64,000 nucleotides of DNA. Origin: Escherichia phage Eps7. How positions within the stretch are numbered: the stretch's first letter is position 1; every line of letters begins with the position of its first letter. Location of the stretch: sequence record NC_010583.1. One strand, given 5' to 3'. Shown here in pieces: positions 183 to 10,709 of the stretch. The translations under genes were made by a program, and so were the position numbers. Below the pieces are notes generated by a model. That model was not told where the DNA came from. It did not search any database and saw only the letters and a list, made by a program, of their open reading frames with translations.

Positions 183-272
183 TGGAGGAAGGTAATGGAG
201 TCGAACCATCACCATATCGCTACAGCGGGCAGGTTTTCAAGACCTGTTACATACCACTATGTCCTACCTTCC
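183..272 (-). tRNA. tRNA-Ser (anticodon UGA, type II; tentative)
   Basis: Reverse-complement T-arm (aatgg/agtcgaa/ccatc), acceptor halves ggaaggt/accttcc, anticodon hairpin caggt-tttcaag-acctg, long variable arm, encoded CCA (TGG 183-185). Confidence 0.6.
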
Positions 273-279
273 AGTTGTT

Positions 280-370
280 TGGCGGAAGAAGAGAGATTCG
301 AACTCTCAAGCCGTTTTACCAGTCAGCCACTTTCCAAGCGGTTTTCGTCACCTAATCGATTTGCTCTTCC
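280..370 (-). tRNA. tRNA, type II (possibly Ser, anticodon GGA)
   Basis: T-arm gagag/attcgaa/ctctc, acceptor ggaagaa/ctcttcc, long variable region, loop tttccaa in imperfect anticodon stem. Confidence 0.5.
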
Positions 371-544
371 GTAGATCTCAGGATTAAATCATAAACTTCA
401 TTAGCGGATACTGGAAGTATGAGATTATACATCTTTTGGTCATACCTCTGACCATACTCTATAAACACATACTCTTTAGTTAATGTATTAACAGCTAACC
501 AGATATCAGTTATAGGAGTTTTCATCATGAGTTAATCCAATGTT

Positions 545-625
545 TGGTAGGGATGGAGGGACTCGAACCCACACCCGAAGACTAGAATCTAAATCTAGCG
601 CGTCTGCCAATTTCGCCACATCCCC
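545..625 (-). tRNA. tRNA (anticodon UAG? Leu-like with short variable arm; uncertain)
   Basis: T-arm gaggg/actcgaa/cccac, acceptor agggatg/catcccc, perfect hairpin ctaga-atctaaa-tctag. Confidence 0.5.
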
Positions 626-632
626 ATTTTAT

Positions 633-851
633 TTAGTTAGAAATAAATAATAATCCCGCAACAATGGAACCTACGCCACTGAACACCATTATCAGCATAG
701 CTTCTAAGCTGATAAAGCGGACAGTATATGGAGCGCCCCAAGAATAATCAGTAAAGAAAGTTTTCTTTTCTTTAGCTAAATCTTTAACAGTTCTAAAATA
801 GATAGCTAGTGCTAAAGCTGCAAGAACTATAGAGGCTGCTAAGAATACCAT
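633..851 (-). CDS. small hydrophobic membrane protein (72 aa)
   Basis: ORF with two predicted TM-like hydrophobic stretches; position between tRNAs. Confidence 0.35.
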   Translation of the reverse strand: MVFLAASIVLAALALAIYFRTVKDLAKEKKTFFTDYSWGAPYTVRFISLEAMLIMVFSGVGSIVAGLLFISN

Positions 852-870
852 ATTATTTCCTTAATTTGTT

Positions 871-946
871 TGGTGGAGTCACTCAGAATTGAACTGAGTT
901 CCACTGCTTGCAAGGCAGTAAGTTTAACCAAATAACCTATGACCCC
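871..946 (-). tRNA. tRNA-Ala (anticodon UGC; tentative)
   Basis: T-arm ctcag/aattgaa/ctgag, acceptor ggagtca/tgacccc, anticodon hairpin actgc-ttgcaag-gcagt. Confidence 0.6.
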
Positions 947-952
947 GAATTT

Positions 953-1031
953 TGGTGGAGAATAACGGAATCGAACCGTTCTGATGTCCTCGGTGCAAGC
1001 GAGGTGTCCACTCCATGCAGACCCATTCCCC
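953..1031 (-). tRNA. tRNA (anticodon also reads UGC; identity uncertain)
   Basis: T-arm aacgg/aatcgaa/ccgtt, acceptor ggagaat/attcccc, hairpin cctcg-gtgcaag-cgagg; 7-nt variable loop. Confidence 0.5.
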
Positions 1032-1040
1032 AAAATTTAT

Positions 1041-1304
1041 TTATTCTCTATACATATCGAGAACAGTTGCTACAATCTGAGCTTCTAGCCTAGCAATATC
1101 TTTATTCACTATATCAGATTCTACTACTAAGTGATTATATATTGCTTCAGTTTTAGCAAGATCTACATCAGATAGTTTATTAAGACTATTATAATACTTA
1201 GCATTATTGCAACGTTTCTTCATATCGGAAACTCGTTTATGGAGTGTTCTTTGTTGATAACGTTGTGACATTAGTTTCTTAGCCATATCTTTCAGATCAA
1301 ACAT
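1041..1304 (-). CDS. hypothetical protein (87 aa)
   Basis: ORF downstream of a ~230-nt leader from the promoter cassette at 1545-1592. Confidence 0.4.
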   Translation of the reverse strand: MFDLKDMAKKLMSQRYQQRTLHKRVSDMKKRCNNAKYYNSLNKLSDVDLAKTEAIYNHLVVESDIVNKDIARLEAQIVATVLDMYRE

Positions 1305-1544
1305 GGATATTCCTTCTAGTTTACTAAGGCTATTAGCTCGGTGTGCGTATTACCCTCAGACATTAGCCAGTAGAGGATAATCGCTCTTCACAAACCCGAT
1401 ACACTATTCAGTTGCCGCTGAATCTAGCGGACTAATCTAGAACTTCTCCCGAGTCGTAGGGATCGTGCTTTTTTGGCAGCCAGTCCTAGGTCGAGCTAAT
1501 ACCTTAGTGAACTTTGATGAGGATTTCTCCTCATCAATTTATAT

Positions 1545-1592
1545 AAATATTATAACAAGAAATTAAGCATCAAGCAAGTACATTTTTAGCGA
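1545..1592 (-). promoter_or_regulatory. T5-type early promoter cassette (sigma70-like)
   Basis: On minus strand: A-rich UP, -35 CTTGCT, 17-nt spacer, -10 TATAAT, conserved leader ATTTATATAAATTGATGAGGAG. Confidence 0.55.
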
Positions 1593-1929
1593 TTTCTTGT
1601 AGTTCCTTAACGTCGCTAACGAAAAGGTAATCAGAGCTTCCAGAGTGCATACTCTGCATAACCACACCACCATCCGGTGCATCTTCTTTCAGTGTGATAC
1701 CTAACCAGAACTCGGCAAAACTAGGTGTTACCTCACCTTGACTTGCCTTGAACACATCGCCTTCTGTGATCTCTTGACCAGTGGAGAGTCCCATGTATGG
1801 TACGTTCAGATCAATATCTTTGTAGAACTCAGCTAGATCTTGCTCGAAATCCCAACCTTTAGAGATAGCGAACTCCATTGTTACATGACCGAAATAGCCT
1901 TGAACCTTGCTTGATAATTGCATTTGCAA
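1570..1929 (-). CDS. hypothetical protein (119 aa)
   Basis: ORF, protein-like composition. Confidence 0.5.
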   Translation of the reverse strand: MQMQLSSKVQGYFGHVTMEFAISKGWDFEQDLAEFYKDIDLNVPYMGLSTGQEITEGDVFKASQGEVTPSFAEFWLGITLKEDAPDGGVVMQSMHSGSSDYLFVSDVKELQEIAKNVLA

Positions 1930-1948
1930 TTCCTTATTTTGAGTTAAT

Positions 1949-2021
1949 TGGTACTCGGTGATAGAATCGAACTATCGCAACCGCCGTGTAAAGACGGGGT
2001 TCTCCCATTAAACTAACCGAG
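1949..2021 (-). tRNA. tRNA-Val (anticodon UAC; tentative)
   Basis: T-arm gatag/aatcgaa/ctatc, acceptor actcggt/accgagc, anticodon arm ccgcc-gtgtaaa-gacgg. Confidence 0.55.
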
Positions 2022-2026
2022 CAATT

Positions 2027-2104
2027 TGGTGGATTGCCTGGGATTCGAACCCAGAACTGACGGATTAAAGGTCCGCTACTCTTATCCAGTTGAGCTAGCA
2101 ATCC
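2027..2104 (-). tRNA. tRNA (anticodon not resolved; possibly Lys UUU)
   Basis: T-arm ctggg/attcgaa/cccag, acceptor ggattgc/gcaatcc perfect; anticodon arm ambiguous. Confidence 0.5.
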
Positions 2105-2490
2105 AATTTTTCTACTAATAATTTAAAAGCATCTAGTACAGGTACTTCAAACCATTCTCCAGATACTCTATAATCTTTAAGAAGATTATGTAATTCTTTC
2201 TCTGTACGTCTTTTATCCGACGAAAATCTGAAATGGTATAGCTTGTAGTCTCTATTAGGTGAATAAGTTTGATAACTTGTTAACCTCTCATTCACATCTA
2301 TAGTCATACCTATTTTATACATGCCTGGCCATGCTGGATTACCAATTACATATACAAAACCTTCCGTTATAGGTATTTTATGCTCCCTTTTATACTTTAA
2401 GAGATTTAAGGCTGCCATTCGATAACAGAATCTAAACTCTGAAGTTTTTAACTTACCTTCTTTACCTGAAATTTCGTTATATTTGCTCAT
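2095..2490 (-). CDS. GIY-YIG-like (T5orf172-type) domain protein
   Basis: Motifs GFVYVIGNP...YKIGMT...R...Y...E resemble the GIY-YIG/T5orf172 nuclease fold; embedded in tRNA cluster. Confidence 0.5.
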   Translation of the reverse strand: MSKYNEISGKEGKLKTSEFRFCYRMAALNLLKYKREHKIPITEGFVYVIGNPAWPGMYKIGMTIDVNERLTSYQTYSPNRDYKLYHFRFSSDKRRTEKELHNLLKDYRVSGEWFEVPVLDAFKLLVEKLDC

Positions 2491-2556
2491 ATAAGCTCTT
2501 ATGAGCTTATCATCTATAATGAAGTTATCAGGAAGGTTTAAGGCAGCTAAAAACTT

Positions 2557-2721
2557 TATTAATTAGCATAGACTTCCTTAATAGAATAAACTTTTAAGTT
2601 AAGGTGATTAATACCAAATTCCGCCATCACTTCGTTTTCATCTTTACCGTAATGGGCTAGTGGATACTTCTTACGATCTTTGCTAGAACGTAGATCACTT
2701 ACTTTTAAACGAAATAATTTC
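2557..2721 (-). CDS. hypothetical small protein (54 aa)
   Basis: ATG-initiated ORF MKLFRLKVSDLRS... found by manual translation; below the 60-aa ORF-track cutoff. Confidence 0.3.
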
Positions 2722-2743
2722 ATTTCGAAATCCTTCTATTAAA

Positions 2744-2820
2744 TTGGAAGCGGGTGCAGGAATCGAACCTACCTCTTTCTAGCTTATGAGACTAGCGATC
2801 TCTACCAGAGATCTAACCCG
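2744..2820 (-). tRNA. tRNA with CAU anticodon (Met or Ile-lysidine; tentative)
   Basis: T-arm gcagg/aatcgaa/cctac, acceptor agcgggt/acccgca, anticodon arm ctagc-ttatgag-actag. Confidence 0.55.
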
Positions 2821-2827
2821 CAATTGT

Positions 2828-2906
2828 TTGGTCTCCGTGGGAGGATTTGAACCCCCCGACCCTATCGCCCCAAACGAAACGCTCTGGCCAAACTGAGCTA
2901 CACGGA
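2828..2906 (-). tRNA. tRNA-Pro (anticodon UGG; tentative)
   Basis: T-arm ggagg/atttgaa/ccccc, acceptor ctccgtg/cacggag perfect, D-arm gctc...gagc, loop ccccaaa. Confidence 0.55.
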
Positions 2907-2934
2907 GAATATTCTTTGTTAACTCACTTTATAA

Positions 2935-2992
2935 ATATATTATACAGAGAATTAAGCTAAATAGCAACTACATTTTTAATAAATTTACTTAT
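2935..2992 (-). promoter_or_regulatory. T5-type early promoter cassette driving tRNAs at 2744-2906
   Basis: RC shows -35 GTTGCT, spacer, -10 TATAAT, conserved leader; tRNA begins about 30 nt downstream. Confidence 0.55.
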
Positions 2993-3212
2993 TAGGTAAG
3001 TCACCGAGCTATCAACTCATGCTAGCGAAAGTTTGCGAGACCTTCTTTAAGTACTAGAACACACCCGCCGATGTGTCGGACTTACTTAATAAGTAAACTT
3101 TCGTTTACTTACACCTACCTGGTCGGGAGGATTTTCAGCGACTAGAACCGGCCGGAAACTCATCGCCTTGTTTATCTAGGAGTCCGTTCTCTAGGAAGCA
3201 GAAACCTAAATT

Positions 3213-3287
3213 TGGTGCGGTCGGAGGGAATCGAACCCTCAACTTCTGGTTGGCAACCAAAAAATTATACCTTTTAACTACGAACGC
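3213..3287 (-). tRNA. tRNA-Gly (anticodon GCC; tentative)
   Basis: T-arm gaggg/aatcgaa/ccctc, acceptor gcggtcg/cgaacgc, anticodon arm tctgg-ttggcaa-ccaaa. Confidence 0.55.
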
Positions 3288-3295
3288 ATAATAAG

Positions 3296-3500
3296 TCAAT
3301 CTAGGCAGGACTTGAACCTGCTATCACTTGTGCGGATTTACGAGAACCATTCTTTCACTCGAATCGAACGAGCTTCTACCCTCGGCAAGCTGGTGTCCCC
3401 TCTCCACCACGCTAGAATGATAATTAATGCCTGCTCCTTTGAATCAAGAAGTCCACCCCGGACTTTGGGTCTTTGCAGTACATCACGCTGCTCTGATGTT
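3296..3500 (-). other. tRNA-like elements (T-arm hairpins without complete cloverleaf); possible tRNA pseudogenes or small ncRNA
   Basis: Two strong T-arm-like hairpins (gcagg-acttgaa-cctgc at 3306-3322; actcg-aatcgaa-cgagc at 3357-3373) but no matching acceptor stem found by eye. Confidence 0.3.
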
Positions 3501-3576
3501 TGGTACACCCACTAGGACTTGAACCTAGAACCCTCCGCTTAAGAGGCGGTAGCTCTAACCATTGAGCTATGGATGT
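3501..3576 (-). tRNA. tRNA (possibly Lys, anticodon CUU)
   Basis: T-arm ctagg/acttgaa/cctag perfect, D-arm gctc...gagc, acceptor acaccca/tggatgt, loop ttaagag. Confidence 0.5.
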
Positions 3577-3654
3577 ATTATTATGTTTTGCAGTGCTCTA
3601 AATATAGACACTTCCCACGCGGTGGTTATCTATACCAGCGTCCTGCAAAAATTG

Positions 3655-3731
3655 GCGCGACCGATGGGATTCGAACCCACATTTTCTCCCGTGACAGGGG
3701 AGTACCATTACCAAGCCAGCCCCGATCGCAT
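3655..3731 (-). tRNA. tRNA-Asp (anticodon GUC)
   Basis: T-arm atggg/attcgaa/cccac, acceptor gcgaccg/cgatcgc, perfect anticodon arm ctccc-gtgacag-gggag. Confidence 0.65.
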
Positions 3732-3752
3732 AATTTATTTACTCAGTTTTGA

Positions 3753-3936
3753 GTTTTTCGATAGCTTCCTCAACCTCTTTTAGAGCTTCACGACGGGCAT
3801 TCTGTTGCTGCATATCTTGAATTAATGTCAGTTTTTGTTTTTAATTTCTTGATCCCAAACCTTAATATTATTAATCAGACTATCACGATCAGCTTCTAGT
3901 CGAGCAATTGCACGAGTTGTCATATCTATTTCCTCA
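3753..3936 (-). CDS. hypothetical small coiled-coil protein (about 60 aa, apparent frameshift)
   Basis: Two short adjacent ORFs (MTTRAIARLEADRD... and ...MQQQNARREALKEVEEAIEKLKTE) join across an A5CA5 tract; manual translation only. Confidence 0.25.
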
Positions 3937-4025
3937 GTTATTAATGAAAATGGTATCTGTGACTGAATTCAATATCAGTAATGATAGCTGGTTGGCTACC
4001 GGTTTACTTAACTCTACACAGAATA

Positions 4026-4108
4026 TGGCGGGCCGTGTAGGATTCGAACCTACGTTGTCTTTCGACATGGATTAACAGTCCACCGCCAAACCGCTTGGCT
4101 AACGACCC
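4026..4108 (-). tRNA. tRNA with 13-nt variable arm; anticodon reads GUU (Asn?)
   Basis: T-arm gtagg/attcgaa/cctac perfect, acceptor gggccgt/acgaccc, anticodon arm atgga-ttaacag-tccac, variable hairpin gtc-tttc-gac. Confidence 0.5.
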
Positions 4109-4115
4109 TAAAATT

Positions 4116-4191
4116 TGGACGACCGCATGAGATTCGAACTCACATAAGGAGGTTTTGCAGGCCTCCGCCTAAGCCATTCAGCCAACGGTCG
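4116..4191 (-). tRNA. tRNA-Cys (anticodon GCA; tentative)
   Basis: T-arm atgag/attcgaa/ctcac, acceptor cgaccgc/acggtcg, anticodon arm gaggt-tttgcag-gcctc. Confidence 0.55.
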
Positions 4192-4369
4192 AGTTATCTT
4201 GCTTTTCGAGATTAGTAAACTCTAGATCTTTAGAATGTCCTATAGATCTAGCATAATAGCCATCTCCAGCATCATAGCCTGACTTACCACACTCACACAT
4301 CTTAAACTCTCTATAACGAGTGAAAATATGTTCAGAACCACAACACTTAAATTTAACTAACATTTTCAT
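4178..4369 (-). CDS. Cys-rich small protein (63 aa), putative zinc ribbon
   Basis: KFKCCGSEH...CECGKSG cysteine pattern; 3' end overlaps tRNA by about 14 nt. Confidence 0.4.
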   Translation of the reverse strand: MKMLVKFKCCGSEHIFTRYREFKMCECGKSGYDAGDGYYARSIGHSKDLEFTNLEKQDNSTVG

Positions 4370-4608
4370 TTAACACGCTCCGGTAAATCTTCGAGTTTAT
4401 ATTGAGTAGCCACATTAGCAGCATCTAGTAACAAACCCATATGTTTAAGAATCCTAGTGATAGCTTCGCCTTCTGCTTCTTCTACAAAAGTGCGTAGTTG
4501 AATGAAGTCAATACCACCATCCATACCAGAGAAAATGTTAAGTAAGCGAAGCATTACCAGCTTACGTTCTTTTAATTCTTGTTCTGCCATGTTGCTTCTC
4601 CAGTTCAA
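4366..4608 (-). CDS. hypothetical protein (80 aa)
   Basis: ORF directly downstream of promoter cassette 4625-4672; ATGA overlap with next gene. Confidence 0.45.
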   Translation of the reverse strand: MNWRSNMAEQELKERKLVMLRLLNIFSGMDGGIDFIQLRTFVEEAEGEAITRILKHMGLLLDAANVATQYKLEDLPERVK

Positions 4609-4624
4609 TTTATGTAATAATTAT

Positions 4625-4672
4625 ACAGAACTTTAAGGATTTAAGCAACTACATTTTTCAGAAATTTGATGC
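4625..4672 (-). promoter_or_regulatory. T5-type early promoter cassette
   Basis: RC: -35 GTTGCT, -10 TATAAT, conserved leader. Confidence 0.5.
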
Positions 4673-4928
4673 CTTTCTTTTTCTTCTTATACTTCCACGT
4701 TAATGGATTCTGTCGATTATGAACGCTTGAGATCTTTGTCTCGTCAAATTTCTTCAATACCATGTAATCACACGCCAACTGCTCTAGTGGAATGGTTTCT
4801 CCATCAAAAGCATAAACATAAGGCTGTTGACTAGCACGATAATGATAGACTTTGTTAACTCTACGTTTCAGCGACTTATCCGCGCAGTAAATAAAGAAGT
4901 TTTCAGGATGCATCAGCATCTCCTTCAA
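4641..4928 (-). CDS. hypothetical protein (95 aa)
   Basis: ORF; lysine-rich C-terminus overlaps the downstream promoter cassette. Confidence 0.4.
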   Translation of the reverse strand: MKEMLMHPENFFIYCADKSLKRRVNKVYHYRASQQPYVYAFDGETIPLEQLACDYMVLKKFDETKISSVHNRQNPLTWKYKKKKKGIKFLKNVVA

Positions 4929-5011
4929 ATTGGTGCAACCTGTACGTAACGATCGTACCTCTTCTCCTTTTCAGGGAGACGCTAATCCATCTCAGCTAAA
5001 GTCGCAAATAT

Positions 5012-5088
5012 TGGCAAACCTACTAGGACTCGAACCTAGACCGTACGGTTTTGGAGACCGACATGCTGTCCAGTAACACTCTAGGAAT
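5012..5088 (-). tRNA. tRNA-Trp (anticodon CCA; tentative)
   Basis: T-arm ctagg/actcgaa/cctag perfect, anticodon arm acggt-tttggag-accga; acceptor pairing imperfect. Confidence 0.5.
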
Positions 5089-5096
5089 GCAGAAAT

Positions 5097-5172
5097 TGGC
5101 GTCCTGTGCGGGGATCGAACCCGCAAATCCTACCTTGAAAGGGTAGTGACTTTACCAGTTTGTCTAACAGGA
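5097..5172 (-). tRNA. tRNA-Glu (anticodon UUC)
   Basis: T-arm gcggg/gatcgaa/cccgc, acceptor gtcctgt/acaggac perfect, anticodon arm ctacc-ttgaaag-ggtag perfect. Confidence 0.65.
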
Positions 5173-5180
5173 CTTAAATT

Positions 5181-5271
5181 TGGTGTTGGATGATGGAGTC
5201 GAACCACCCGAGACCCTTCCGAGTCGGCAGATTTACAGTCTGCTTCGCTACCTCTACGATACTAATCCAAC
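5181..5271 (-). tRNA. tRNA-Tyr (anticodon GUA, type II)
   Basis: T-arm gatgg/agtcgaa/ccacc, acceptor gttggat/atccaac perfect, anticodon arm gcaga-tttacag-tctgc perfect, long variable arm. Confidence 0.65.
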
Positions 5272-5416
5272 ATATTTGAATGAAAAATAAGTCGGTTAAA
5301 CTCAAGGTGGAATATTTCAGGAAATCCTGACTTTACCCCTAAAAGCAACTCGCTTAGTTACTTCTCATTCAGATATGTTTTCCAAATTAGATAACTATTA
5401 TATCAAGTTTTGAAGG

Positions 5417-5452
5417 ACTGAGCAAGTCAAATTTTAAAGAACTTGCTCAGTG
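5417..5452 (-). terminator. intrinsic terminator hairpin (11-bp stem)
   Basis: actgagcaagt ... acttgctcagt inverted repeat immediately downstream of the 5462-5737 gene. Confidence 0.45.
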
Positions 5453-5461
5453 CTATATCAG

Positions 5462-5737
5462 TTACTCGAAGCTAGGAGTGACACTCAGTTTGAATGGAAG
5501 CTCGAACACTTCTTCATAATCATCATTGAGCGTAATTACACGACCTTCTAGCTTAGTCATGGTGATTTCGATATCAGCCTCTGCATCAGGAGCCATACCA
5601 GCTTCCACACATTTAGCTTTGACTTCCGGCAGAAGTTCTACATCGTAGAAATAAAGCCATTCAATCTCACCTTCCCAGCCACCCCAGGATTTACAAACAG
5701 CACTTTCAACACCAGTTGCAGTAACACGTTTTGACAT
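5462..5737 (-). CDS. hypothetical protein (91 aa)
   Basis: ORF downstream of promoter cassette 5775-5815. Confidence 0.5.
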   Translation of the reverse strand: MSKRVTATGVESAVCKSWGGWEGEIEWLYFYDVELLPEVKAKCVEAGMAPDAEADIEITMTKLEGRVITLNDDYEEVFELPFKLSVTPSFE

Positions 5738-5774
5738 TCGTTAACTCCTTCATCAATTTATATAACTATTATAG

Positions 5775-5815
5775 CAGAAATCTTAAGTAAAAAGCAAGTA
5801 CATTTTTAAAATTTC
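5775..5815 (-). promoter_or_regulatory. T5-type early promoter cassette
   Basis: RC: -35 CTTGCT, -10 TATAAT, conserved leader. Confidence 0.5.
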
Positions 5816-5827
5816 TGCTTGGAGGAG

Positions 5828-6034
5828 TTAAACTCCTGATTCTTCAGCCAGATCAAGCCCAACCAACGTGATTGCCATAATAGCCGCGCCATGTTCTTTC
5901 TCTCCTAGCTCTTTGGCTTGAGTGAGAATATTTAGGAACTGCTTTTGAAAATCTGCAACTTCTTCTGTCATGCCTGCTTCAGCAATAATTCCTTTCAGCA
6001 TAAAGCGTTGTGCCGTAATTTCAGGATTAGCCAT
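5828..6034 (-). CDS. hypothetical protein (68 aa)
   Basis: ORF. Confidence 0.45.
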   Translation of the reverse strand: MANPEITAQRFMLKGIIAEAGMTEEVADFQKQFLNILTQAKELGEKEHGAAIMAITLVGLDLAEESGV

Positions 6035-6185
6035 TTATTATCTCCAGTTATTTAGAATGTAAGCCAAACTTAGGATCATAGCGATCGTAAGTCGTACCAT
6101 TAGTTGAAGCCTTGATGCTATGAAAACGACAGTACATAAATTTACGTAGTGCTTTCTTAATAGCTTTCATTTTATTTCCTTAATT

Positions 6186-6262
6186 TGGTAGGGGTGGTGG
6201 GATTCGAACCCACAAAACCTGAATTTTAAGTCCAGTACCTATGCCAATTCGATTACACCCCC
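6186..6262 (-). tRNA. tRNA (anticodon reads UAA, Leu-like but type I; uncertain)
   Basis: T-arm gtggg/attcgaa/cccac perfect, acceptor aggggtg/caccccc, anticodon arm ctgaa-ttttaag-tccag. Confidence 0.5.
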
Positions 6263-6280
6263 ATGTAATCTTAGCGAATC

Positions 6281-6603
6281 TCTAAACCCTGGAAATATCG
6301 AGGGAATGGAGAGCCAACTTCAAAATTGATGCCCCAATTAAGTTCAACGAGTTCAGATTTATTAAGATCTAGGCCATTACCTTCAAAGATATAGCCGTAA
6401 ACCGCAGGGAACATAGCTGCTAGATCTTCCATATCGGAATGAGCATTGTGTTCTTCACGGAACTGCTCAACTCTTCAATAGAACTTTTCTAGGAGACTCA
6501 GGTACGATGAACGTTACCACATCAGTAGAATCATCGGTACGATACACCGTAGCTTGGAACAAGCCAACACCTAAAAGGTTTATTGCCGGAGTAGTAAAAA
6601 TAT
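6281..6603 (-). CDS. hypothetical protein (about 107 aa, apparent +1 frameshift near 6470)
   Basis: Two sub-threshold ORFs (MDIFTTPAINLLG... and ...EQFREEHNAHSDMEDLAAMFPAVYGYIFEGNGLDL...) in adjacent frames. Confidence 0.3.
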
Positions 6604-6608
6604 CCATC

Positions 6609-6794
6609 TTAGCCTCGCTCAATGTCTAGACAAATTGCATATTCAGGGTTGATACCAGTACCTTTACATGTAGGACATTCCCATTCTCTACAGAAAATAT
6701 CCCCAGGTTCTGCATCATCCTGCCTACCACTACCATGACAGTCCTTACACCGACATTCTTCTAATGCTTTCTTCATTTCATAGAATCTAGACAT
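6609..6794 (-). CDS. DnaJ-type zinc-finger mini-protein (61 aa)
   Basis: Two CxxCxGxG motifs (CKDCHGSG, CPTCKGTG) plus additional Cys pairs. Confidence 0.45.
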   Translation of the reverse strand: MSRFYEMKKALEECRCKDCHGSGRQDDAEPGDIFCREWECPTCKGTGINPEYAICLDIERG

Positions 6795-6811
6795 ATAGTC
6801 TCCTAGTTAAT

Positions 6812-6889
6812 TGGTGGCTCCCGGAGGATTCGAACCTACCTACCTTTCGCTTATGAGGCGACGGCTCATACCAAATGAGCTTGAGAACC
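6812..6889 (-). tRNA. tRNA with CAU anticodon (Met or Ile-lysidine; tentative)
   Basis: T-arm ggagg/attcgaa/cctac, D-arm gctc...gagc, anticodon arm ttcgc-ttatgag-gcgac. Confidence 0.55.
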
Positions 6890-6894
6890 AAATT

Positions 6895-6988
6895 TGGAGG
6901 AAGATGCCAGATTCGAACTGGCACACCGTGTCTCCACAGCTACTGGCTGTTTAGCAAACAGCTCCCTTACCTTTAGGGTTAATCTTCC
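6895..6988 (-). tRNA. tRNA-Ser (anticodon GCU, type II)
   Basis: T-arm gccag/attcgaa/ctggc perfect, acceptor ggaagat/atcttcc perfect, anticodon arm gctgt-ttagcaa-acagc perfect, long variable arm. Confidence 0.65.
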
Positions 6989-6999
6989 GAATTTATGAA

Positions 7000-7045
7000 T
7001 ATATTATACAGAAAATTTCGGCATTAAGCAAGTGAAATTTTACTG
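7000..7045 (-). promoter_or_regulatory. T5-type early promoter cassette driving tRNAs at 6812-6988
   Basis: RC: -35 CTTGCT, -10 TATAAT, conserved leader. Confidence 0.5.
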
Positions 7046-7336
7046 AACATTGCACTGATATACTTGTTTGATACGTGTCACTGACTTCTTAGTTGGGTTG
7101 ATAGAAGAACCCTGCCACCAACGTGATTCTGAGCTGAGAACAGCCCCAGGAACAGCTTGTTCTTTTGGCAGAACAATATCAAAACACTGTTCACCCATAT
7201 TATCTTTAATGTGCGACCAAATGTCTAGAGTAAATCGTTCTAGCTTATTACAAACTTGAACTTGACAAAGTTCCTGTTGTGGAGCAGCAAATACAGAAGT
7301 AGATACTAGAGTCAATGCAAGTACAATGCGTTTCAT
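7040..7336 (-). CDS. secreted/periplasmic protein with signal peptide (98 aa)
   Basis: MKRIVLALTLVSTSVFA signal peptide then Cys-containing mature part; the ORF-track MREESN prefix is read-through of the conserved leader. Confidence 0.5.
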   Translation of the reverse strand: MKRIVLALTLVSTSVFAAPQQELCQVQVCNKLERFTLDIWSHIKDNMGEQCFDIVLPKEQAVPGAVLSSESRWWQGSSINPTKKSVTRIKQVYQCNVQ

Positions 7337-7362
7337 ATTTGATTCCTCTCTCAAATTTATAA

Positions 7363-7400
7363 ATATATTATACAGAAATTTTCTATATAAGCAAGGTAAA
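7363..7400 (-). promoter_or_regulatory. T5-type early promoter cassette
   Basis: RC: -35 CTTGCT, 17-nt spacer, -10 TATAAT, leader ...TTTGAGAGAGGAATCAA then ATG. Confidence 0.55.
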
Positions 7401-7436
7401 AATTTATGTATATAGCCCTCTAAGCGAGGGCTATAA
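7398..7436 (-). terminator. intrinsic terminator
   Basis: Hairpin tatagccctc-taagc-gagggctata followed on the minus strand by a U-run. Confidence 0.5.
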
Positions 7437-7441
7437 CTACT

Positions 7442-8134
7442 TTATTTGTTAACGCGTACAAAGTATCCTTTATAGGCTCCCATAATAGAGTTACCTAAGA
7501 ATACTAGCCACATTGCTAGGATTGCATAAGATGCACCTGTAGATTGAGCAGTTACAAGCCAAATGTACACAGTACCAATGTTAATAGCAATCCAAATCAG
7601 CCATTGTTCAGCATATTGTTTGACCATAAGCCACATAGCAATCACACTACCTACCGCAGTAAATGCATCCAACATTGGGAATGGATCAGCCGTAGTAGCA
7701 AGGAAACTACCATAACCTAACGTGGCTACTGCTAAAATCCCTAGAGTCAGCAAAGCTTGAGCTTTTGTCAGAACTTTAGTTGGAACATCCGGCAGATTAC
7801 TTGGCTTATTTTTATGCCATAAGTACATTCCATAAAACTGCATAGGAACGTAGTATAGCAGGTTTAGTGCAGCGTTACCATAAAGATCTGCGTTTAAAGC
7901 TGTAATACCATATGTAAGAACACCCACTAAGCCCCAAATATAGTTGGAAACACGTCCTTTTGCAACCAGAATAACACAAACCACATTGGTTATTGCAGTA
8001 GCCCAATCTAGAGCTGTACCATTATAGTTTGCTAAACTAATAAAGGCGACTGCTATAAACAGCCACAGATATTCCAGAGGTTTCCAGTTTTTAAAGTCAT
8101 TTACGAGATAGTTAGTCATATTAAAACTCTCCAA
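7442..8134 (-). CDS. pnuC: nicotinamide riboside transporter PnuC-like membrane protein
   Basis: 230-aa polytopic membrane protein; GMYLWHK and VKQYAEQWLIWIAINI match PnuC signatures GWYAW and RKYVENWLLWVIINV. Confidence 0.65.
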   Translation of the reverse strand: MESFNMTNYLVNDFKNWKPLEYLWLFIAVAFISLANYNGTALDWATAITNVVCVILVAKGRVSNYIWGLVGVLTYGITALNADLYGNAALNLLYYVPMQFYGMYLWHKNKPSNLPDVPTKVLTKAQALLTLGILAVATLGYGSFLATTADPFPMLDAFTAVGSVIAMWLMVKQYAEQWLIWIAINIGTVYIWLVTAQSTGASYAILAMWLVFLGNSIMGAYKGYFVRVNK

Positions 8135-9176
8135 AGATAAAGTGATGAATCAGCCAGTCTACTGCGTTTACTGCTTCGTCCATACGAACTTTGTAGTCCG
8201 GAGAGTCGATGTAAACAGTACGCCCTTCAGGGAACTGATTTGGAAATTCTTTCTTCATCTGCTCGAACAGTTCAGAAGTAATTGAACGATCGGAGTTAAT
8301 ACGTAAACCATCATCTACCCACTTGACAGTAGGCGCTAGAACAATTACTAAATCGTAATGTTCTTCTTTTGCAATTGCTGTAACCACAGGGTTCTTACTA
8401 TGTTCATAAAGTCTGTGGTAGAACTCAGTAATAAAAGCATTTGTATCCACAAACATGATCTTATTTGCAGTACGTTTTGCTTCAAACTCTAGCTCTTTGT
8501 GTCTGAACGCAATTTTACTATAGTCTTCGCTGGTAAGCAGATTTTCGTTACCAACTAGATCAACTTCACAATACGTTCGGCCATATTCTTTTACCCACGA
8601 AGTGTTGTATAGCTTCGCAAGGTATTTTGTTAAAGTAGTCTTTCCTGAGCTTTCAGTCCCAATGATTACAACCTTACGCACGTAATCTTTACGAACTACG
8701 CTAGGAAGAAACTCCCAATACTTCATAAGATCATTACGAATCATTGTAGCTGAGATTGGAACACGAGTCCGATCAGAATCTACAATATAATGACCAAACT
8801 TCGGCAGATATTTCTTATATTCTGCATCATAGTCTAGTTCGCTAGAGAAAATGGTGATCTCAGGCAAATGTCCGTAATTTTCATTAAGGATTCTAGCATA
8901 TTCCGGCCAACCATTCGGATATTCAGGAATATCATCTTCAATAATGTACTCTACCGAAATGTGCTCAATATCCGCGTAAGTTTGTTCTAACCAACGAAGT
9001 CGATTCTTTAACTGTAATACTTCCTGATCACGTGTGTTCTGCTTATCCAGCCAACGATTATCATGACTAACTACAACAATAACTCGTTCACACATAGTTG
9101 CTGCTGTGTTTATTAGGTTAATATGACCACGCGTTAATGGCGCGAACTTACCAATTACTAGACCAGTCTTAATCAT
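8121..9176 (-). CDS. nadR: NadR-like bifunctional NMN adenylyltransferase / ribosylnicotinamide kinase
   Basis: N-terminal nucleotidyltransferase motif GKFAPLTRGH (HxGH), C-terminal P-loop GTESSGKTT; true start MIKTGL (track MREESN prefix is leader). Confidence 0.65.
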   Translation of the reverse strand: MIKTGLVIGKFAPLTRGHINLINTAATMCERVIVVVSHDNRWLDKQNTRDQEVLQLKNRLRWLEQTYADIEHISVEYIIEDDIPEYPNGWPEYARILNENYGHLPEITIFSSELDYDAEYKKYLPKFGHYIVDSDRTRVPISATMIRNDLMKYWEFLPSVVRKDYVRKVVIIGTESSGKTTLTKYLAKLYNTSWVKEYGRTYCEVDLVGNENLLTSEDYSKIAFRHKELEFEAKRTANKIMFVDTNAFITEFYHRLYEHSKNPVVTAIAKEEHYDLVIVLAPTVKWVDDGLRINSDRSITSELFEQMKKEFPNQFPEGRTVYIDSPDYKVRMDEAVNAVDWLIHHFIFGEF

Positions 9177-9202
9177 ATTTGATTCCTCTCTCAAATTTAT
9201 AA

Positions 9203-9250
9203 ATATATTATACAGAGAATTTAGCGTTCAAGCAATCGAATTTTTAAACT
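9203..9250 (-). promoter_or_regulatory. T5-type early promoter cassette (drives nadR-pnuC)
   Basis: RC: -35 ATTGCT, -10 TATAAT, conserved leader with GAGAGAGGAATCAA RBS. Confidence 0.55.
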
Positions 9251-9384
9251 TTTTAGTGGAAAAATCTCAAGGCATTTAGTGGTAGCACGTTGTTGCTACA
9301 ATAATAGTATATGTATTACTAAAGTAAATAAAGAATTAAATACTAAAGACCTTAGTTGAATAACTTATGGGCTTTTCTTTTGCC

Positions 9385-9428
9385 TTAAATACAGAAAAGC
9401 CCGCGCTCTCGGAGGAAACGCGGGCTTG
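9385..9428 (-). terminator. intrinsic terminator (possibly bidirectional)
   Basis: GC-rich hairpin aagcccgcg...cgcgggctt with flanking T/A runs. Confidence 0.5.
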
Positions 9429-9546
9429 GTTCGAAGATTACGTGTAACTATTACTTGTTACGCATATCCATGATCATTTGACCATCGTAGCCAGTACCAA
9501 CAACAGTCTGCGGTACACCACCTTGTATTTTTCAGCACGAAGCATT

Positions 9547-10395
9547 TCAAACTTCCAGCTGCTTCCAACGAATCATTTCAGGAGTAATGGTACGTTGCAG
9601 CGCGGCGTTAGCTTCAGCTTCTTTCTTAGCTGCGTACAGTTTAGCATCTGCGTCACGTTCGTTAGCTACTGCCATGTTTTCACGAGCAGAACGATCAGCT
9701 TCAGCTTGCTTAACTTTCTGCTGTGCTTCTTGTTCAACACGAGCCAATTCAGCTTTAGCGGCGTTAACTTGTTCTTCACGAACTTTTGTGTTTTGTACCT
9801 GTTCCATGATTACAGGTGGCAGAGTAATATCCTGAAGGAATACTTGCTTAACCGTGTAACCATAAGGACGCGCGTACTCTTCTACTTCTTGCTGAATAGC
9901 AGTTTGCAGTTGAGCCTGAATCTTAGCGTCGAACAGATCTTGTGCTTTTGGTACAGACTTACCAAACTCACGAATCGTAGATAGCATCTTCTCTTCAACG
10001 TACTTGTTCAGAGCTTGATCCTGAGTACCTGCGTTAACACGGTTCATAGGAGCTTTAGCACCATCAAACTGCAACATAACGGTAATGTCAACAGTGGACT
10101 TAAACTTATCCTGGCTAGGAACCTGAAGTTTATCCAGTTTCATGGAAATATCTTTCGTACTAAAAGTATCAAAAGAAGCAAATGGGTTAACAATATGGAA
10201 GCCTGGCAATACAGGATTAGGGCTAACTTTACCCAGGAAGGTTTGGGTCTTAACAGTACCATCCTGAACAACTGTGTAGGAATTGAGAGCCAGAATAAGA
10301 GCGCCAAGACCAACTACAGCACCAACACCCCAACGTTTGATAGTGCGAATTACTTTTTGCTCAGAAGTCAGTTCTTTAGTGTTTTTAGTAAACAT
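9547..10395 (-). CDS. SPFH/band-7 (stomatin/prohibitin/HflC-like) domain protein; C-terminus probably extends to about 9451
   Basis: N-terminal TM segment, SPFH-like core, Ala/Glu/Gln-rich coiled-coil tail; two in-frame stops within 30 nt flanking an open alternative frame. Confidence 0.6.
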   Translation of the reverse strand: MFTKNTKELTSEQKVIRTIKRWGVGAVVGLGALILALNSYTVVQDGTVKTQTFLGKVSPNPVLPGFHIVNPFASFDTFSTKDISMKLDKLQVPSQDKFKSTVDITVMLQFDGAKAPMNRVNAGTQDQALNKYVEEKMLSTIREFGKSVPKAQDLFDAKIQAQLQTAIQQEVEEYARPYGYTVKQVFLQDITLPPVIMEQVQNTKVREEQVNAAKAELARVEQEAQQKVKQAEADRSARENMAVANERDADAKLYAAKKEAEANAALQRTITPEMIRWKQLEV

Positions 10396-10406
10396 ATATT
10401 TCCTTA

Positions 10407-10607
10407 TTATTTAGAAGAGTTAGCTACTACAGTTACTTTAGTTGCAGAAATAAACAGGCTAGCATCCACAGCAAATTCAGGAGCTTTGATATCTCCATTA
10501 TGAAATATGACTATACCGGAGACTACTTCAAATGCTAGTGCTGTAACATCGGTGGTATTTACTTGTGAATGTTCACCTACTACTTTTACTATATATCGTG
10601 TTTTCAC
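10407..10607 (-). CDS. NfeD-like short OB-fold protein (66 aa), partner of SPFH protein
   Basis: Beta-rich 66-aa protein (YIVKVVGEHSQV...) immediately upstream of and co-oriented with the SPFH gene. Confidence 0.4.
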   Translation of the reverse strand: MKTRYIVKVVGEHSQVNTTDVTALAFEVVSGIVIFHNGDIKAPEFAVDASLFISATKVTVVANSSK

Positions 10608-10633
10608 TTTATTTTCCTAGCAGTTAATAAAAT

Positions 10634-10709
10634 TGGCCGAGGTGACAGGATTCGAACCTGCATAAAGGAATTTAGAAGACTCCTGCCTATCCCTTAGACT
10701 ACACCCCGT
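10634..10709 (-). tRNA. tRNA-Arg (anticodon UCU; tentative)
   Basis: T-arm acagg/attcgaa/cctgc, acceptor cgaggtg/caccccg, anticodon arm ggaat-ttagaag-actcc. Confidence 0.6.

What the first reader, a model, noticed from the sequence alone, without database searches (positions are those of the whole stretch)
2095..2490. GIY-YIG/T5orf172-like nuclease-domain protein embedded in the tRNA cluster
Motifs GFVYVIGNP...YKIGMT...R...E resemble the GIY-YIG (T5orf172) fold. Its 3' end overlaps the 5' acceptor stem of the tRNA at 2027-2104 by about 10 nt, suggesting a mobile-element-like insertion into the tRNA array or a tRNA-processing role.
Basis: inference. Interest (0 to 1): 0.4.

Follow-up and report, generated by a model that had tools for sequence, protein, structure and literature searches.

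The report
Homing-type nuclease gene beside tRNA-Lys
This is a small GIY-YIG (T5orf172-family) nuclease gene of the selfish "homing endonuclease" type, sitting in the tRNA cluster of a T5-like phage; it is an ordinary, already annotated gene, notable only because it always travels with its own version of the neighbouring tRNA-Lys gene and has lost its first 26 codons here.

Summary
ORF 2095-2490 (-) encodes 131 aa that match Pfam MUG113 (2.6e-18) and T5orf172 (4.4e-15). It ends 10 nt inside tRNA-Lys(UUU) (2027-2104).

The window is a T5-like phage, closest to Escherichia phage PSa2. The gene is the ortholog of BF23 "ORF trn 2.12.1" and a 48%-identical paralog of T5.069, a 172-aa ORF likely to be the family's namesake. 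An identical protein is annotated "putative homing endonuclease" in phage TrudiRoth.

T5, DaisyDussoix and STG2 lack the gene at this site and carry tRNA-Lys alleles only 74-77% identical. Across 50,697 phage records, 84 hold the gene and 85 hold this tRNA-Lys allele. The variable unit is therefore a gene-plus-tRNA cassette (about 2027-2571) between conserved flanks.

In other T5-like phages, paralogs sit just 5' of tRNA-Asn, Glu, Pro, Leu or Ala. The window is empty at the two of these sites I checked closely (Asn, Glu).

The 10-nt overlap arises because the ORF uses the tRNA's U8-A9-G10 (TAG) as its stop codon.

In the window and PSa2 an extra T (run 2549-2553) frameshifts away the ancestral first 26 codons of a 157-aa protein.

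[quoted passage not shown] No cleavage or homing has been shown. A tRNA-processing role is not supported.

The parts
2095..2490 (-). 131-aa ORF as it stands in the window. It comprises half of helix 2, helix 3 and the complete T5orf172/MUG113 (GIY-YIG-type) nuclease domain; the domain spans about 2119-2361.
   Evidence: Residues invariant in the 19-sequence family alignment (157-aa numbering): G70 Y73 N77 P78 A79 K85 G87 R95 Y99 Q100 T101 P104 E123 E138 W139. All are present.
2491..2569 (-). Remnant of the ancestral first 26 codons. The ancestral ATG lies at 2567-2569. It is now out of frame and reads MLINKVFSCLKPS* (stop at 2528-2530).
   Evidence: JLBYU43 157-aa ORF; BF23 157-aa ORF with annotated RBS
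2549..2553 (-). Run of five T (A5 on the + strand), where most orthologous records have one base fewer. This is the frameshift that removes the N-terminus. PSa2 shares it.
   Evidence: (in 59 of the 60 listed records the match spans 170 record bases against 171 query bases, or 168 against 169; PSa2 alone spans 171)
2027..2104 (-). tRNA-Lys(UUU), the allele specific to gene-bearing genomes. It forms the second half of the variable cassette. Its anticodon loop is CCUUUAA.
   Evidence: 85 records at >=80% coverage, against 84 records with the gene
2095..2104 (-). ORF/tRNA overlap. The stop codon TAG (2097-2095) is tRNA nucleotides U8-A9-G10.
2559..2723 (-). 54-aa ORF, the homolog of T5.065 / BF23 ORF trn 2.12. 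Its last codons overlap the ancestral start of the nuclease gene (ATGCTAATTAA). Homology to the empty-site phage STG2 ends at about 2572.
2939..2967 (-). Sigma-70-like promoter (TTGCTA-17-TATAAT) upstream of tRNA-Pro, at the position of promoter P13a in T5/BF23. It implies one transcript: tRNA-Pro, tRNA-Met, ORF54, nuclease gene, tRNA-Lys, tRNA-Val.
   Evidence: P13a annotation
1949..2022 (-). tRNA-Val, the conserved right flank (93-100% identical in phages with and without the gene).
2745..2822 (-). tRNA-Met (annotated as initiator in T5/BF23), the conserved left flank (99-100% identical in all phages compared).
4109..4115 (.). Empty site. tRNA-Cys and tRNA-Asn are adjacent here, whereas T5, BF23 and DaisyDussoix carry the paralog T5.069 between them.
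5174..5180 (.). Empty site. tRNA-Tyr and tRNA-Glu are adjacent here, whereas oselot and GreteKellenberger carry a paralog between them.

Best explanation
[quoted passage not shown] In its intact form it encodes 157 aa: an N-terminal three-helix module, possibly the DNA-recognition part, followed by the nuclease domain. It lies in a tRNA operon immediately 5' of tRNA-Lys(UUU).

Inferred mechanism: in a mixed infection, the enzyme cuts the genome of a related phage that lacks the gene, at or near that phage's tRNA-Lys / T5.065 junction. Recombinational repair from the gene-bearing genome then copies the nuclease gene together with its own divergent tRNA-Lys allele, which would be refractory to cleavage. 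This would replace the recipient's tRNA-Lys.

Shown here: the domain identity, the presence/absence polymorphism, the near one-to-one linkage to a tRNA-Lys allele, the paralogs at other tRNA junctions, and purifying selection on the protein.

Inferred only: cleavage, target site, homing, and immunity of the linked allele.

The window's copy is an N-terminally truncated allele. A +1 T frameshift leaves a 131-aa ORF starting at the conserved Met27, behind a weak AAGAG Shine-Dalgarno-like sequence. Whether this allele is active is uncertain.

For: Polymorphism: T5 has T5.065 abutting tRNA-Lys with no gene between them. DaisyDussoix and STG2 show the same. BLAST of the window against STG2 gives 95.8% identity up to about 2572 and 97.3% from 2023 on. 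Between these points lie 468 unique nt and a tRNA-Lys only 77.5% identical.

Linkage: 84 records hold the ortholog, and 85 hold this tRNA-Lys allele at >=80% coverage, with the same organism breakdown to within one record. A simple deletion in T5 would have left this allele behind, and T5 does not have it. The variant is therefore a segment replacement.

Second example: the T5-type tRNA-Asn follows T5.069-type genes.

Paralogs lie directly 5' of tRNA-Asn, Glu, Pro, Leu and Ala in other T5-like phages.

Selection (window vs BF23): 53.7 synonymous and 15.3 nonsynonymous differences, giving dN/dS of about 0.03.

Analogy: T4 SegB is a GIY-YIG homing endonuclease in a tRNA cluster. It cuts within tRNA genes and drags neighbouring tRNA genes along with it (PMC2330249; PMC13096335).
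Against: - No cleavage, target site or preferential inheritance has been shown for this protein or, as far as I found, for any T5-like member.
- The linked tRNA-Lys allele is essentially never found without the gene, and dN/dS is very low. That fits a stably maintained, useful gene at least as well as a selfish element passing through gain and decay.
- GreteKellenberger has a paralog next to the common tRNA-Glu allele, and BF23 has the STG2-type tRNA-Pro allele without a nuclease gene. Gene-tRNA linkage is therefore not universal.
- The window copy lacks 26 N-terminal residues, including helix 1 and half of helix 2.
Confidence: 0.65

Rival explanations
1. A domesticated nuclease kept because it benefits the phage, rather than a purely selfish element. 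Possible benefits include excluding competing T5-like phages, or promoting recombination or amplification of the tRNA array, as T-even SegB does to escape tRNA-cleaving defences. The chemistry would be the same (DNA cutting by a GIY-YIG domain), but the gene would be maintained by selection on the phage.
For: - dN/dS is about 0.03 over 131 codons, with synonymous sites near saturation (pS 0.68).
- The tRNA-Lys allele is found without the gene in at most one or two of 86 records.
- Three independent N-terminal lesions (window/PSa2, bux, KKP_3822). In window/PSa2 and bux the 131-codon core remains intact; KKP_3822 has a further frameshift after Met27.
- SegB drives amplification of a tRNA-segB locus to evade Septu (PMC13096335).
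- The nuclease domain resembles the candidate defence family PDC-S57 (7e-11).
Against: - The gene is absent from most T5-like phages, which propagate well without it.
- The patchy distribution, with paralogs at alternative sites, is the classical signature of homing genes.
- No phenotype is known.
Confidence: 0.2
2. In this particular genome the gene is a decaying remnant. The frameshift has inactivated it, and the 131-aa ORF is either not expressed or not functional.
For: - The +1 T frameshift removes the ancestral start, which is coupled to the upstream ORF, and 26 residues that include conserved positions such as Y30.
- PSa2's annotators called no gene here.
- KKP_3822 carries several further frameshifts, including one after Met27.
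- Decay after fixation is the expected fate of homing genes.
Against: - The remaining 131 codons are 100% identical to those of intact alleles (TrudiRoth, JN-S202001).
- Met27 is conserved in BF23 and is preceded by AAGAG.
- The deleted 26 codons are the least constrained part of the gene (pN 0.32 against 0.049).
- bux independently lost the same segment and keeps the same 131-aa ORF.
Confidence: 0.12
3. A tRNA-processing or tRNA-directed RNA nuclease that serves the phage tRNA array.
For: - All members in T5-like phages lie inside tRNA arrays, co-oriented with and directly upstream of a tRNA.
- The gene is co-transcribed with tRNAs.
Against: - GIY-YIG domains are DNA nucleases (established knowledge).
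- About 200 of 285 records sharing the neighbouring tRNA-Val lack the gene.
- Distant family members have no tRNAs within 1.5 kb (none of about 67).
- Many unrelated small ORFs of this region also abut tRNAs.
Confidence: 0.03

Closest known systems
BF23 ORF trn 2.12.1 (YP_009646881) and its orthologs in 84 GenBank phage records (e.g. TrudiRoth and IrmaTschudi 'putative homing endonuclease'; JLBYU43 'putative GIY-YIG nuclease family protein')
   Same: Orthologous: 91.6-100% identity over the 131 aa. Same position between the T5.065 homolog and tRNA-Lys(UUU), the same 10-nt overlap, and the same tRNA-Lys allele.
   Different: Those genes encode 157 aa. The window, like PSa2, has a +1 T frameshift and keeps only residues 27-157.
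T5.069 of phage T5 (172 aa; probably the ORF after which Pfam T5orf172 is named, my inference from its length and phage)
   Same: Same family and architecture (47.6% identity). Also sits in the tRNA cluster, with its 3' end inside the next tRNA gene (24 nt into tRNA-Asn), and is linked to a distinct tRNA allele.
   Different: Different insertion site (between tRNA-Cys and tRNA-Asn). That site is empty in the window (4109-4115).
T5orf172-family homing endonuclease genes of ICP1 and other phages (Barth, Dunham and Seed 2023, PMC10448857)
   Same: Same nuclease domain. Patchy distribution, expansion within a phage lineage, and position at boundaries of genetic exchange.
   Different: Most of those carry one or more Zn-finger DNA-binding modules (CapR, DUF723, DUF4397) and lie near essential genes such as terminase, ribonucleotide reductase or capsid. 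This protein has no Zn finger, only a 66-aa three-helix N-terminus, and lies in a tRNA array.
T4/T6 SegB, a GIY-YIG homing endonuclease in the T-even tRNA cluster (PMC2330249; PMC13096335)
   Same: A free-standing GIY-YIG gene embedded in a phage tRNA cluster. SegB cuts within tRNA genes and transfers itself together with neighbouring tRNA genes, which is the behaviour inferred here.
   Different: No detectable sequence relationship beyond the superfamily. This protein's nuclease domain is C-terminal (Pfam match at residues 44-124 of 131); in SegB, to my knowledge, it is N-terminal with the DNA-binding region C-terminal. SegB's activity is demonstrated experimentally, whereas nothing is demonstrated here.
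HNH homing endonucleases of the T5 tRNA region (hegA, hegC; F-Tfl enzymes, Akulenko et al. 2004, as cited in PMC10644984)
   Same: Also variable, free-standing endonuclease genes in the same tRNA region. hegC likewise overlaps the next tRNA gene.
   Different: An unrelated fold and catalytic motif (HNH rather than GIY-YIG).

Membership tests
T5orf172 / MUG113 (GIY-YIG superfamily) | Profile match above the curated Pfam threshold | tested here: met
   MUG113 scores 66.8 bits (cut-off 22.3). T5orf172 scores 56.5 bits (cut-off 20).
T5orf172 / MUG113 (GIY-YIG superfamily) | Core motifs: first beta-hairpin G-x-x-Y ('GIY'), second 'K/Y-I-G', a conserved Arg, and a conserved metal-binding Glu | tested here: met
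   G70, Y73, K85, G87, R95 and E138 (157-aa numbering) are invariant across the 19 aligned homologs, and all are present in the window protein.
T5orf172 / MUG113 (GIY-YIG superfamily) | GIY-YIG alpha/beta fold | tested here: met
T5orf172 / MUG113 (GIY-YIG superfamily) | Mg-dependent DNA nuclease activity | not testable with these tools
   Needs biochemistry.
Free-standing homing endonuclease gene | Presence/absence polymorphism at a fixed site between conserved flanks in related genomes | tested here: met
   The site is filled in the window, BF23, JLBYU43 and others. It is empty in T5, DaisyDussoix and STG2, with flanks 96-97% identical to STG2.
Free-standing homing endonuclease gene | Sporadic distribution, with paralogs at alternative sites | tested here: met
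   84 records hold the gene, against 285 that hold the neighbouring tRNA-Val. Paralogs lie next to tRNA-Asn, Glu, Pro, Leu and Ala.
Free-standing homing endonuclease gene | Divergent (cleavage-resistant) target sequence in the donor, with co-conversion of flanking markers | tested here: inconclusive
   The linked tRNA-Lys allele is 71-77% identical to the alleles of gene-lacking phages and co-occurs with the gene (84 vs 85 records). That fits the expectation, but resistance and the cut site are unknown.
Free-standing homing endonuclease gene | Site-specific cleavage of the gene-lacking allele, and over-representation of the gene in progeny of mixed infections | not testable with these tools
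   Needs in vitro cleavage assays and phage crosses.
Free-standing homing endonuclease gene | A DNA-binding module that gives site specificity | tested here: inconclusive
T4 Seg-type GIY-YIG endonucleases (SegA-G) | N-terminal GIY-YIG domain followed by a C-terminal DNA-binding region; sequence similarity to Seg proteins and I-TevI | tested here: not met
tRNA-processing enzyme of the phage tRNA array | Conserved co-occurrence with the tRNA array it would serve | tested here: not met
   T5, DaisyDussoix, STG2 and about 200 further records keep the array without this gene.

The most novel reading that the evidence does not exclude
In T5-like phages, a clade of minimal T5orf172 nucleases could form two-gene mobile cassettes with the tRNA gene immediately downstream. 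The nuclease ORF even borrows the tRNA's U8-A9-G10 as its stop codon. Nuclease-driven gene conversion would then be the engine that swaps whole tRNA alleles between phages.

The linked tRNA-Lys(UUU) allele carries an unusual C33 next to the site where, to my knowledge, anticodon nucleases such as PrrC cut. The cassette might therefore spread a defence-resistant tRNA, a T5-family counterpart of the SegB-tRNA anti-defence role reported in 2026.

A further possibility follows from the overlap. RNase P processing of tRNA-Lys would remove the ORF's stop codon, which could limit expression of the nuclease.
Probability: 0.2. Interest if true: 0.6.

Novelty: already known. Interest (0 to 1): 0.27.

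Why it matters
As an annotation this is routine. The gene belongs to the very family named after its T5 paralog, and identical proteins are already labelled putative homing endonucleases.

What could matter is the wider pattern it points to. The nuclease gene and a specific tRNA allele are inherited as one unit in 84-85 phage genomes, and a second example exists at tRNA-Asn. This suggests that selfish nucleases shape which tRNA alleles T5-like phages carry. Phage tRNAs are now known to counter tRNA-cleaving bacterial defences, so such cassettes could be vehicles for spreading resistant tRNAs. Available BASEL phages would allow a direct test.

Tried and rejected
- PDB sequence search with the family profile: no hit even at E<=10. 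Fold comparison was needed instead.
- NCBIfam: no model matches the 131-aa form, the 157-aa form or the upstream 54-aa ORF.
- Programmed frameshifting at the T run: rejected. Joining the upstream ATG to the ORF would need a +1 shift at GUU-UUU-AGC. Five T is, in my judgement, too short for transcriptional slippage. Most relatives simply have one base fewer.
- Sequencing error as the cause of the extra T: unlikely. PSa2, a different isolate (97.1% identical over the 171 nt around the T-run; 97.5% over the first 12 kb), has the same 5T.
- The overlap as a special signature of insertion: rejected. 13 of 21 tRNAs in the window have TAG or TAA at positions 8-10, and unrelated ORFs also run into tRNAs, for example 4178-4369 into tRNA-Cys and T5 hegC into tRNA-Ser.
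- tRNA adjacency as a property of the whole T5orf172 family: rejected. In IMG/VR only the T5-like clade shows it. About 67 distant relatives have no tRNA within 1.5 kb.
- Further copies in the window: none. A family HMM run against all six-frame ORFs hits only this one.
- Predicting the cleavage site from the empty-site alleles: they share little beyond general tRNA features, so no credible target could be derived.

Full report
**1. What is at the coordinates**

Twenty tRNA genes lie in the first 7 kb and one more at 10.6 kb, all on the minus strand. tRNA-Lys(ttt) lies at 2027-2104, so the ORF and the tRNA share exactly 10 nt.

The protein matches several profiles:
- Pfam MUG113: E=2.6e-18, residues 58-124.
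- Pfam T5orf172: E=4.4e-15, residues 44-120. Both Pfam matches are far above the curated cut-offs.
- PHROG 5032: E=2.4e-49.

**2. Where the window comes from and what the gene corresponds to**

The region is 98% identical to many Salmonella and Escherichia T5-like phages (Demerecviridae). Over the first 12 kb the closest record is Escherichia phage PSa2 (Epseptimavirus EPS7), at 97.5% identity.

tblastn finds the ortholog in 84 phage records. The protein is 100% identical to that of TrudiRoth, where it is annotated "putative homing endonuclease". It is 98.5% identical to JLBYU43's "putative GIY-YIG nuclease family protein", and 91.6% identical to BF23 "ORF trn 2.12.1".

Phage T5 has no gene at this position. 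T5.065 abuts tRNA-Lys there. T5 does have a 47.6%-identical paralog, T5.069 (172 aa), between tRNA-Cys and tRNA-Asn. From its length and phage I infer that T5.069 is the ORF that gave Pfam T5orf172 its name.

**3. The ORF is truncated here**

JLBYU43 and BF23 annotate 157 aa, starting at an ATG that overlaps the stop of the upstream 54-aa ORF (ATGCTAATTAA). BF23 annotates a ribosome-binding site for it.

The window has five T at 2549-2553 where JLBYU43 has four. The ancestral ATG (2567-2569) therefore now reads MLINKVFSCLKPS and stops. The long ORF restarts at the conserved Met27 (2490).

Evidence on how common this allele is:
- In 59 of the 60 listed relatives the match spans one base fewer in the record than in the query.
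- In 58 of the 60 listed orthologous records the 157-aa query aligns over its full or near-full length.
- PSa2 has the same 5T and the same truncation. It is a different isolate, so this is a real inherited allele rather than a read error.

Other N-terminal lesions exist independently:
- Phage bux lost 10 nt in the same N-terminal segment and keeps the same 131-aa ORF.
- KKP_3822 has several 1-nt deletions, including one after Met27.

The lost 26 codons are the least constrained part of the gene. Between JLBYU43 and BF23, pN is 0.32 there against 0.049 for the rest.

**4. Structure and catalytic residues**

An alignment of 19 homologs shows these invariant residues: G70, Y73, N77-P78-A79, K85, G87, R95, Y99-Q100-T101, P104, E123 and E138-W139. 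This is the GIY / (K)IG / Arg / Glu pattern of GIY-YIG enzymes.

AlphaFold2 on this alignment gives pLDDT 86.6. The model has three N-terminal helices (2-9, 20-34, 42-62), then a beta-beta-alpha-beta-alpha-beta-beta-alpha domain.

- PD-T4-3, the I-TevI catalytic domain and EF2693 appear lower in the list.

**5. Presence/absence and the cassette**

DaisyDussoix and STG2, like T5, have the order tRNA-fMet, 54/55-aa ORF, tRNA-Lys, with no nuclease gene. STG2 has an extra 106-aa ORF before tRNA-Val.

BLAST of the window against STG2 shows:

| Window segment | Identity to STG2 |
|---|---|
| Left flank, up to about 2572 | 95.8% |
| 2104-2571 (468 nt) | unique to the window |
| tRNA-Lys (2027-2104) | 77.5% |
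| From 2023 onward | 97.3% |

The tRNA-Lys allele is identical in the window and BF23. It is only 71-77% identical to the alleles of T5, DaisyDussoix and STG2. By contrast, tRNA-Val and tRNA-fMet are 93-100% identical everywhere.

Database-wide, this tRNA-Lys allele occurs in 85 records at >=80% coverage (86 with any match: Salmonella 54, Escherichia 29, Yersinia 2, Citrobacter 1). The gene occurs in 84 records (53, 28, 2, 1). The two are therefore essentially never separated.

T5 does not carry this allele, so the empty state is not a simple deletion. The polymorphism is a replacement of the segment [nuclease gene + tRNA-Lys].

The window and BF23 copies differ at 68% of synonymous sites but only 4.9% of nonsynonymous sites, giving dN/dS of about 0.03. 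The cassette is therefore old, and the protein is under strong purifying selection.

**6. The pattern repeats at other sites**

| Phage(s) | Downstream tRNA | Overlap (-) or gap (+), nt |
|---|---|---|
| T5, BF23, DaisyDussoix | Asn | -24 |
| oselot | Glu | -14 |
| GreteKellenberger | Glu | -10 |
| STG2 | Pro | 0 (abutting) |
| SE11 | Leu | -15 |
| Klebsiella phage Sugarland | Asn | -10 |
| Vibrio phage Hades | Pro | +1 |
| Serratia phage Slocum | Ala | +31 |

IMG/VR contigs of the T5-like clade show the same pattern.

The window is empty at the Cys/Asn (4109-4115) and Tyr/Glu (5174-5180) junctions. A family HMM finds no second copy in the 64 kb.

The T5-type tRNA-Asn allele is 64% identical to the window's. 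It follows a family member in every genome I inspected, and occurs in 134 records. Of these, 84 have close T5.069 orthologs, and Klebsiella phages such as Sugarland have diverged paralogs.

There are exceptions. GreteKellenberger's paralog sits next to the common tRNA-Glu allele. BF23 has the STG2-type tRNA-Pro allele without a nuclease gene.

**7. What the overlap means**

The stop codon TAG (2097-2095) is tRNA nucleotides 8-10. In 13 of the 21 tRNAs of the window, positions 8-10 read TAG or TAA. An ORF without its own stop that enters a tRNA gene in that frame will therefore end exactly 10 nt in. This explains the recurrent 10-nt overlaps.

Unrelated ORFs of this region also abut or overlap tRNAs. 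The overlap thus reflects tight packing and physically ties the gene to its tRNA. It is not itself evidence of mobility or of a tRNA-related activity.

A promoter-like site at 2967-2939 corresponds to P13a of T5/BF23, and no terminator is predicted in between. The gene is therefore presumably transcribed together with tRNA-Pro, Met, Lys and Val. RNase P cleavage at the tRNA-Lys 5' end would then remove the last three codons and the stop. This is an inference from the known action of RNase P and is untested.

**8. Interpretation**

The closest functional analogy is T4/T6 SegB. SegB is a GIY-YIG enzyme in the T-even tRNA cluster that cuts inside tRNA genes. It ensures preferential inheritance of itself and neighbouring tRNA genes (PMC2330249). 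It was recently shown to drive amplification of a tRNA locus against a tRNA-cleaving defence (PMC13096335).

Cleavage, target and homing are inferred here, not shown.

Rival readings:
- A domesticated, beneficial nuclease. The very low dN/dS, and the absence of this tRNA allele without the gene, keep this reading alive.
- Decay of this particular copy. The frameshift supports it, but the intact and fully conserved 131 codons argue against complete inactivation.
- tRNA processing. This is not supported, because most related phages keep the array without the gene, and distant relatives are not near tRNAs.

**9. Novelty**

Both the gene and its classification are already in public records and in the literature on T5orf172 homing genes. 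The finding is correct but ordinary. I did not find the following described in the papers I read:
- the near one-to-one nuclease-tRNA allele linkage;
- the use of U8-A9-G10 as the stop codon;
- the recurrent N-terminal truncations.

These are modest additions that suggest testable experiments.

Noticed in passing
window 2027-2104 (-): The tRNA-Lys(UUU) allele linked to the nuclease gene has anticodon loop CCUUUAA. That places C at position 33, where to my knowledge U is almost universal. The T5, DaisyDussoix and STG2 alleles have CUUUUAA. BF23's GenBank note says this tRNA works as an amber suppressor once its anticodon is changed, so it is functional. C33 lies next to the site where, to my knowledge, anticodon nucleases such as PrrC cut. 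A role in evading them is possible but untested.
   Followed up: partly
window tRNA genes, 183-10708: 13 of the 21 tRNA genes have TAG or TAA at positions 8-10 (the conserved U8-A9-G10). This acts as a ready-made stop codon for any upstream ORF entering in that frame. The ORF at 4178-4369 overlaps tRNA-Cys by 14 nt in another frame.
   Followed up: yes
L008 (Salmonella phage STG2) 1969-2286: STG2 has a 106-aa Cys-rich ORF (CHYCRDC...CFTC) inserted between tRNA-Lys and tRNA-Val. The insertion is about 466 nt and is absent from the window. It is another variable insert in the same interval, and its identity was not examined.
   Followed up: no
window 4026-4108 (-): The window's tRNA-Asn is 83 nt long and only 64% identical to the 78-nt T5-type tRNA-Asn. 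The T5-type allele follows a T5orf172-family gene in every genome inspected here (T5, BF23, DaisyDussoix; Sugarland not directly compared) and occurs in 134 records. This is a second case of a tRNA allele linked to a nuclease gene.
   Followed up: partly
window 871-946 and 953-1031 (-): Two adjacent tRNA-Ala(tgc) genes with clearly different sequences (5' ends GGGGTCATAG and GGGGAATGGG). PSa2 has both as well, whereas JLBYU43, T5 and BF23 show one tRNA-Ala in this region.
   Followed up: no
L093 (phage bux) ~310-450; L094 (KKP_3822) ~355-500: There are independent lesions in the first 26 codons of the same gene: a 10-nt deletion in bux and several 1-nt deletions in KKP_3822. In bux the 131-codon core stays intact, as in the window and PSa2. 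In KKP_3822 the ORF is also broken after Met27, which could reflect either decay or assembly quality.
   Followed up: partly
window 2908-3212: The spacer between tRNA-Gly and tRNA-Pro is 305 nt with no ORF of 60 aa or more. STG2 carries a 169-aa T5orf172-family gene abutting tRNA-Pro at this position. T5/BF23 annotate stable RNAs and promoter P13a in the equivalent region.
   Followed up: no
157-aa ortholog (L001 3599-4069): The nuclease domain matches the candidate defence family PDC-S57 in PADLOC (E=7e-11). This shows that the same domain is used in bacterial anti-phage candidates.
   Followed up: no
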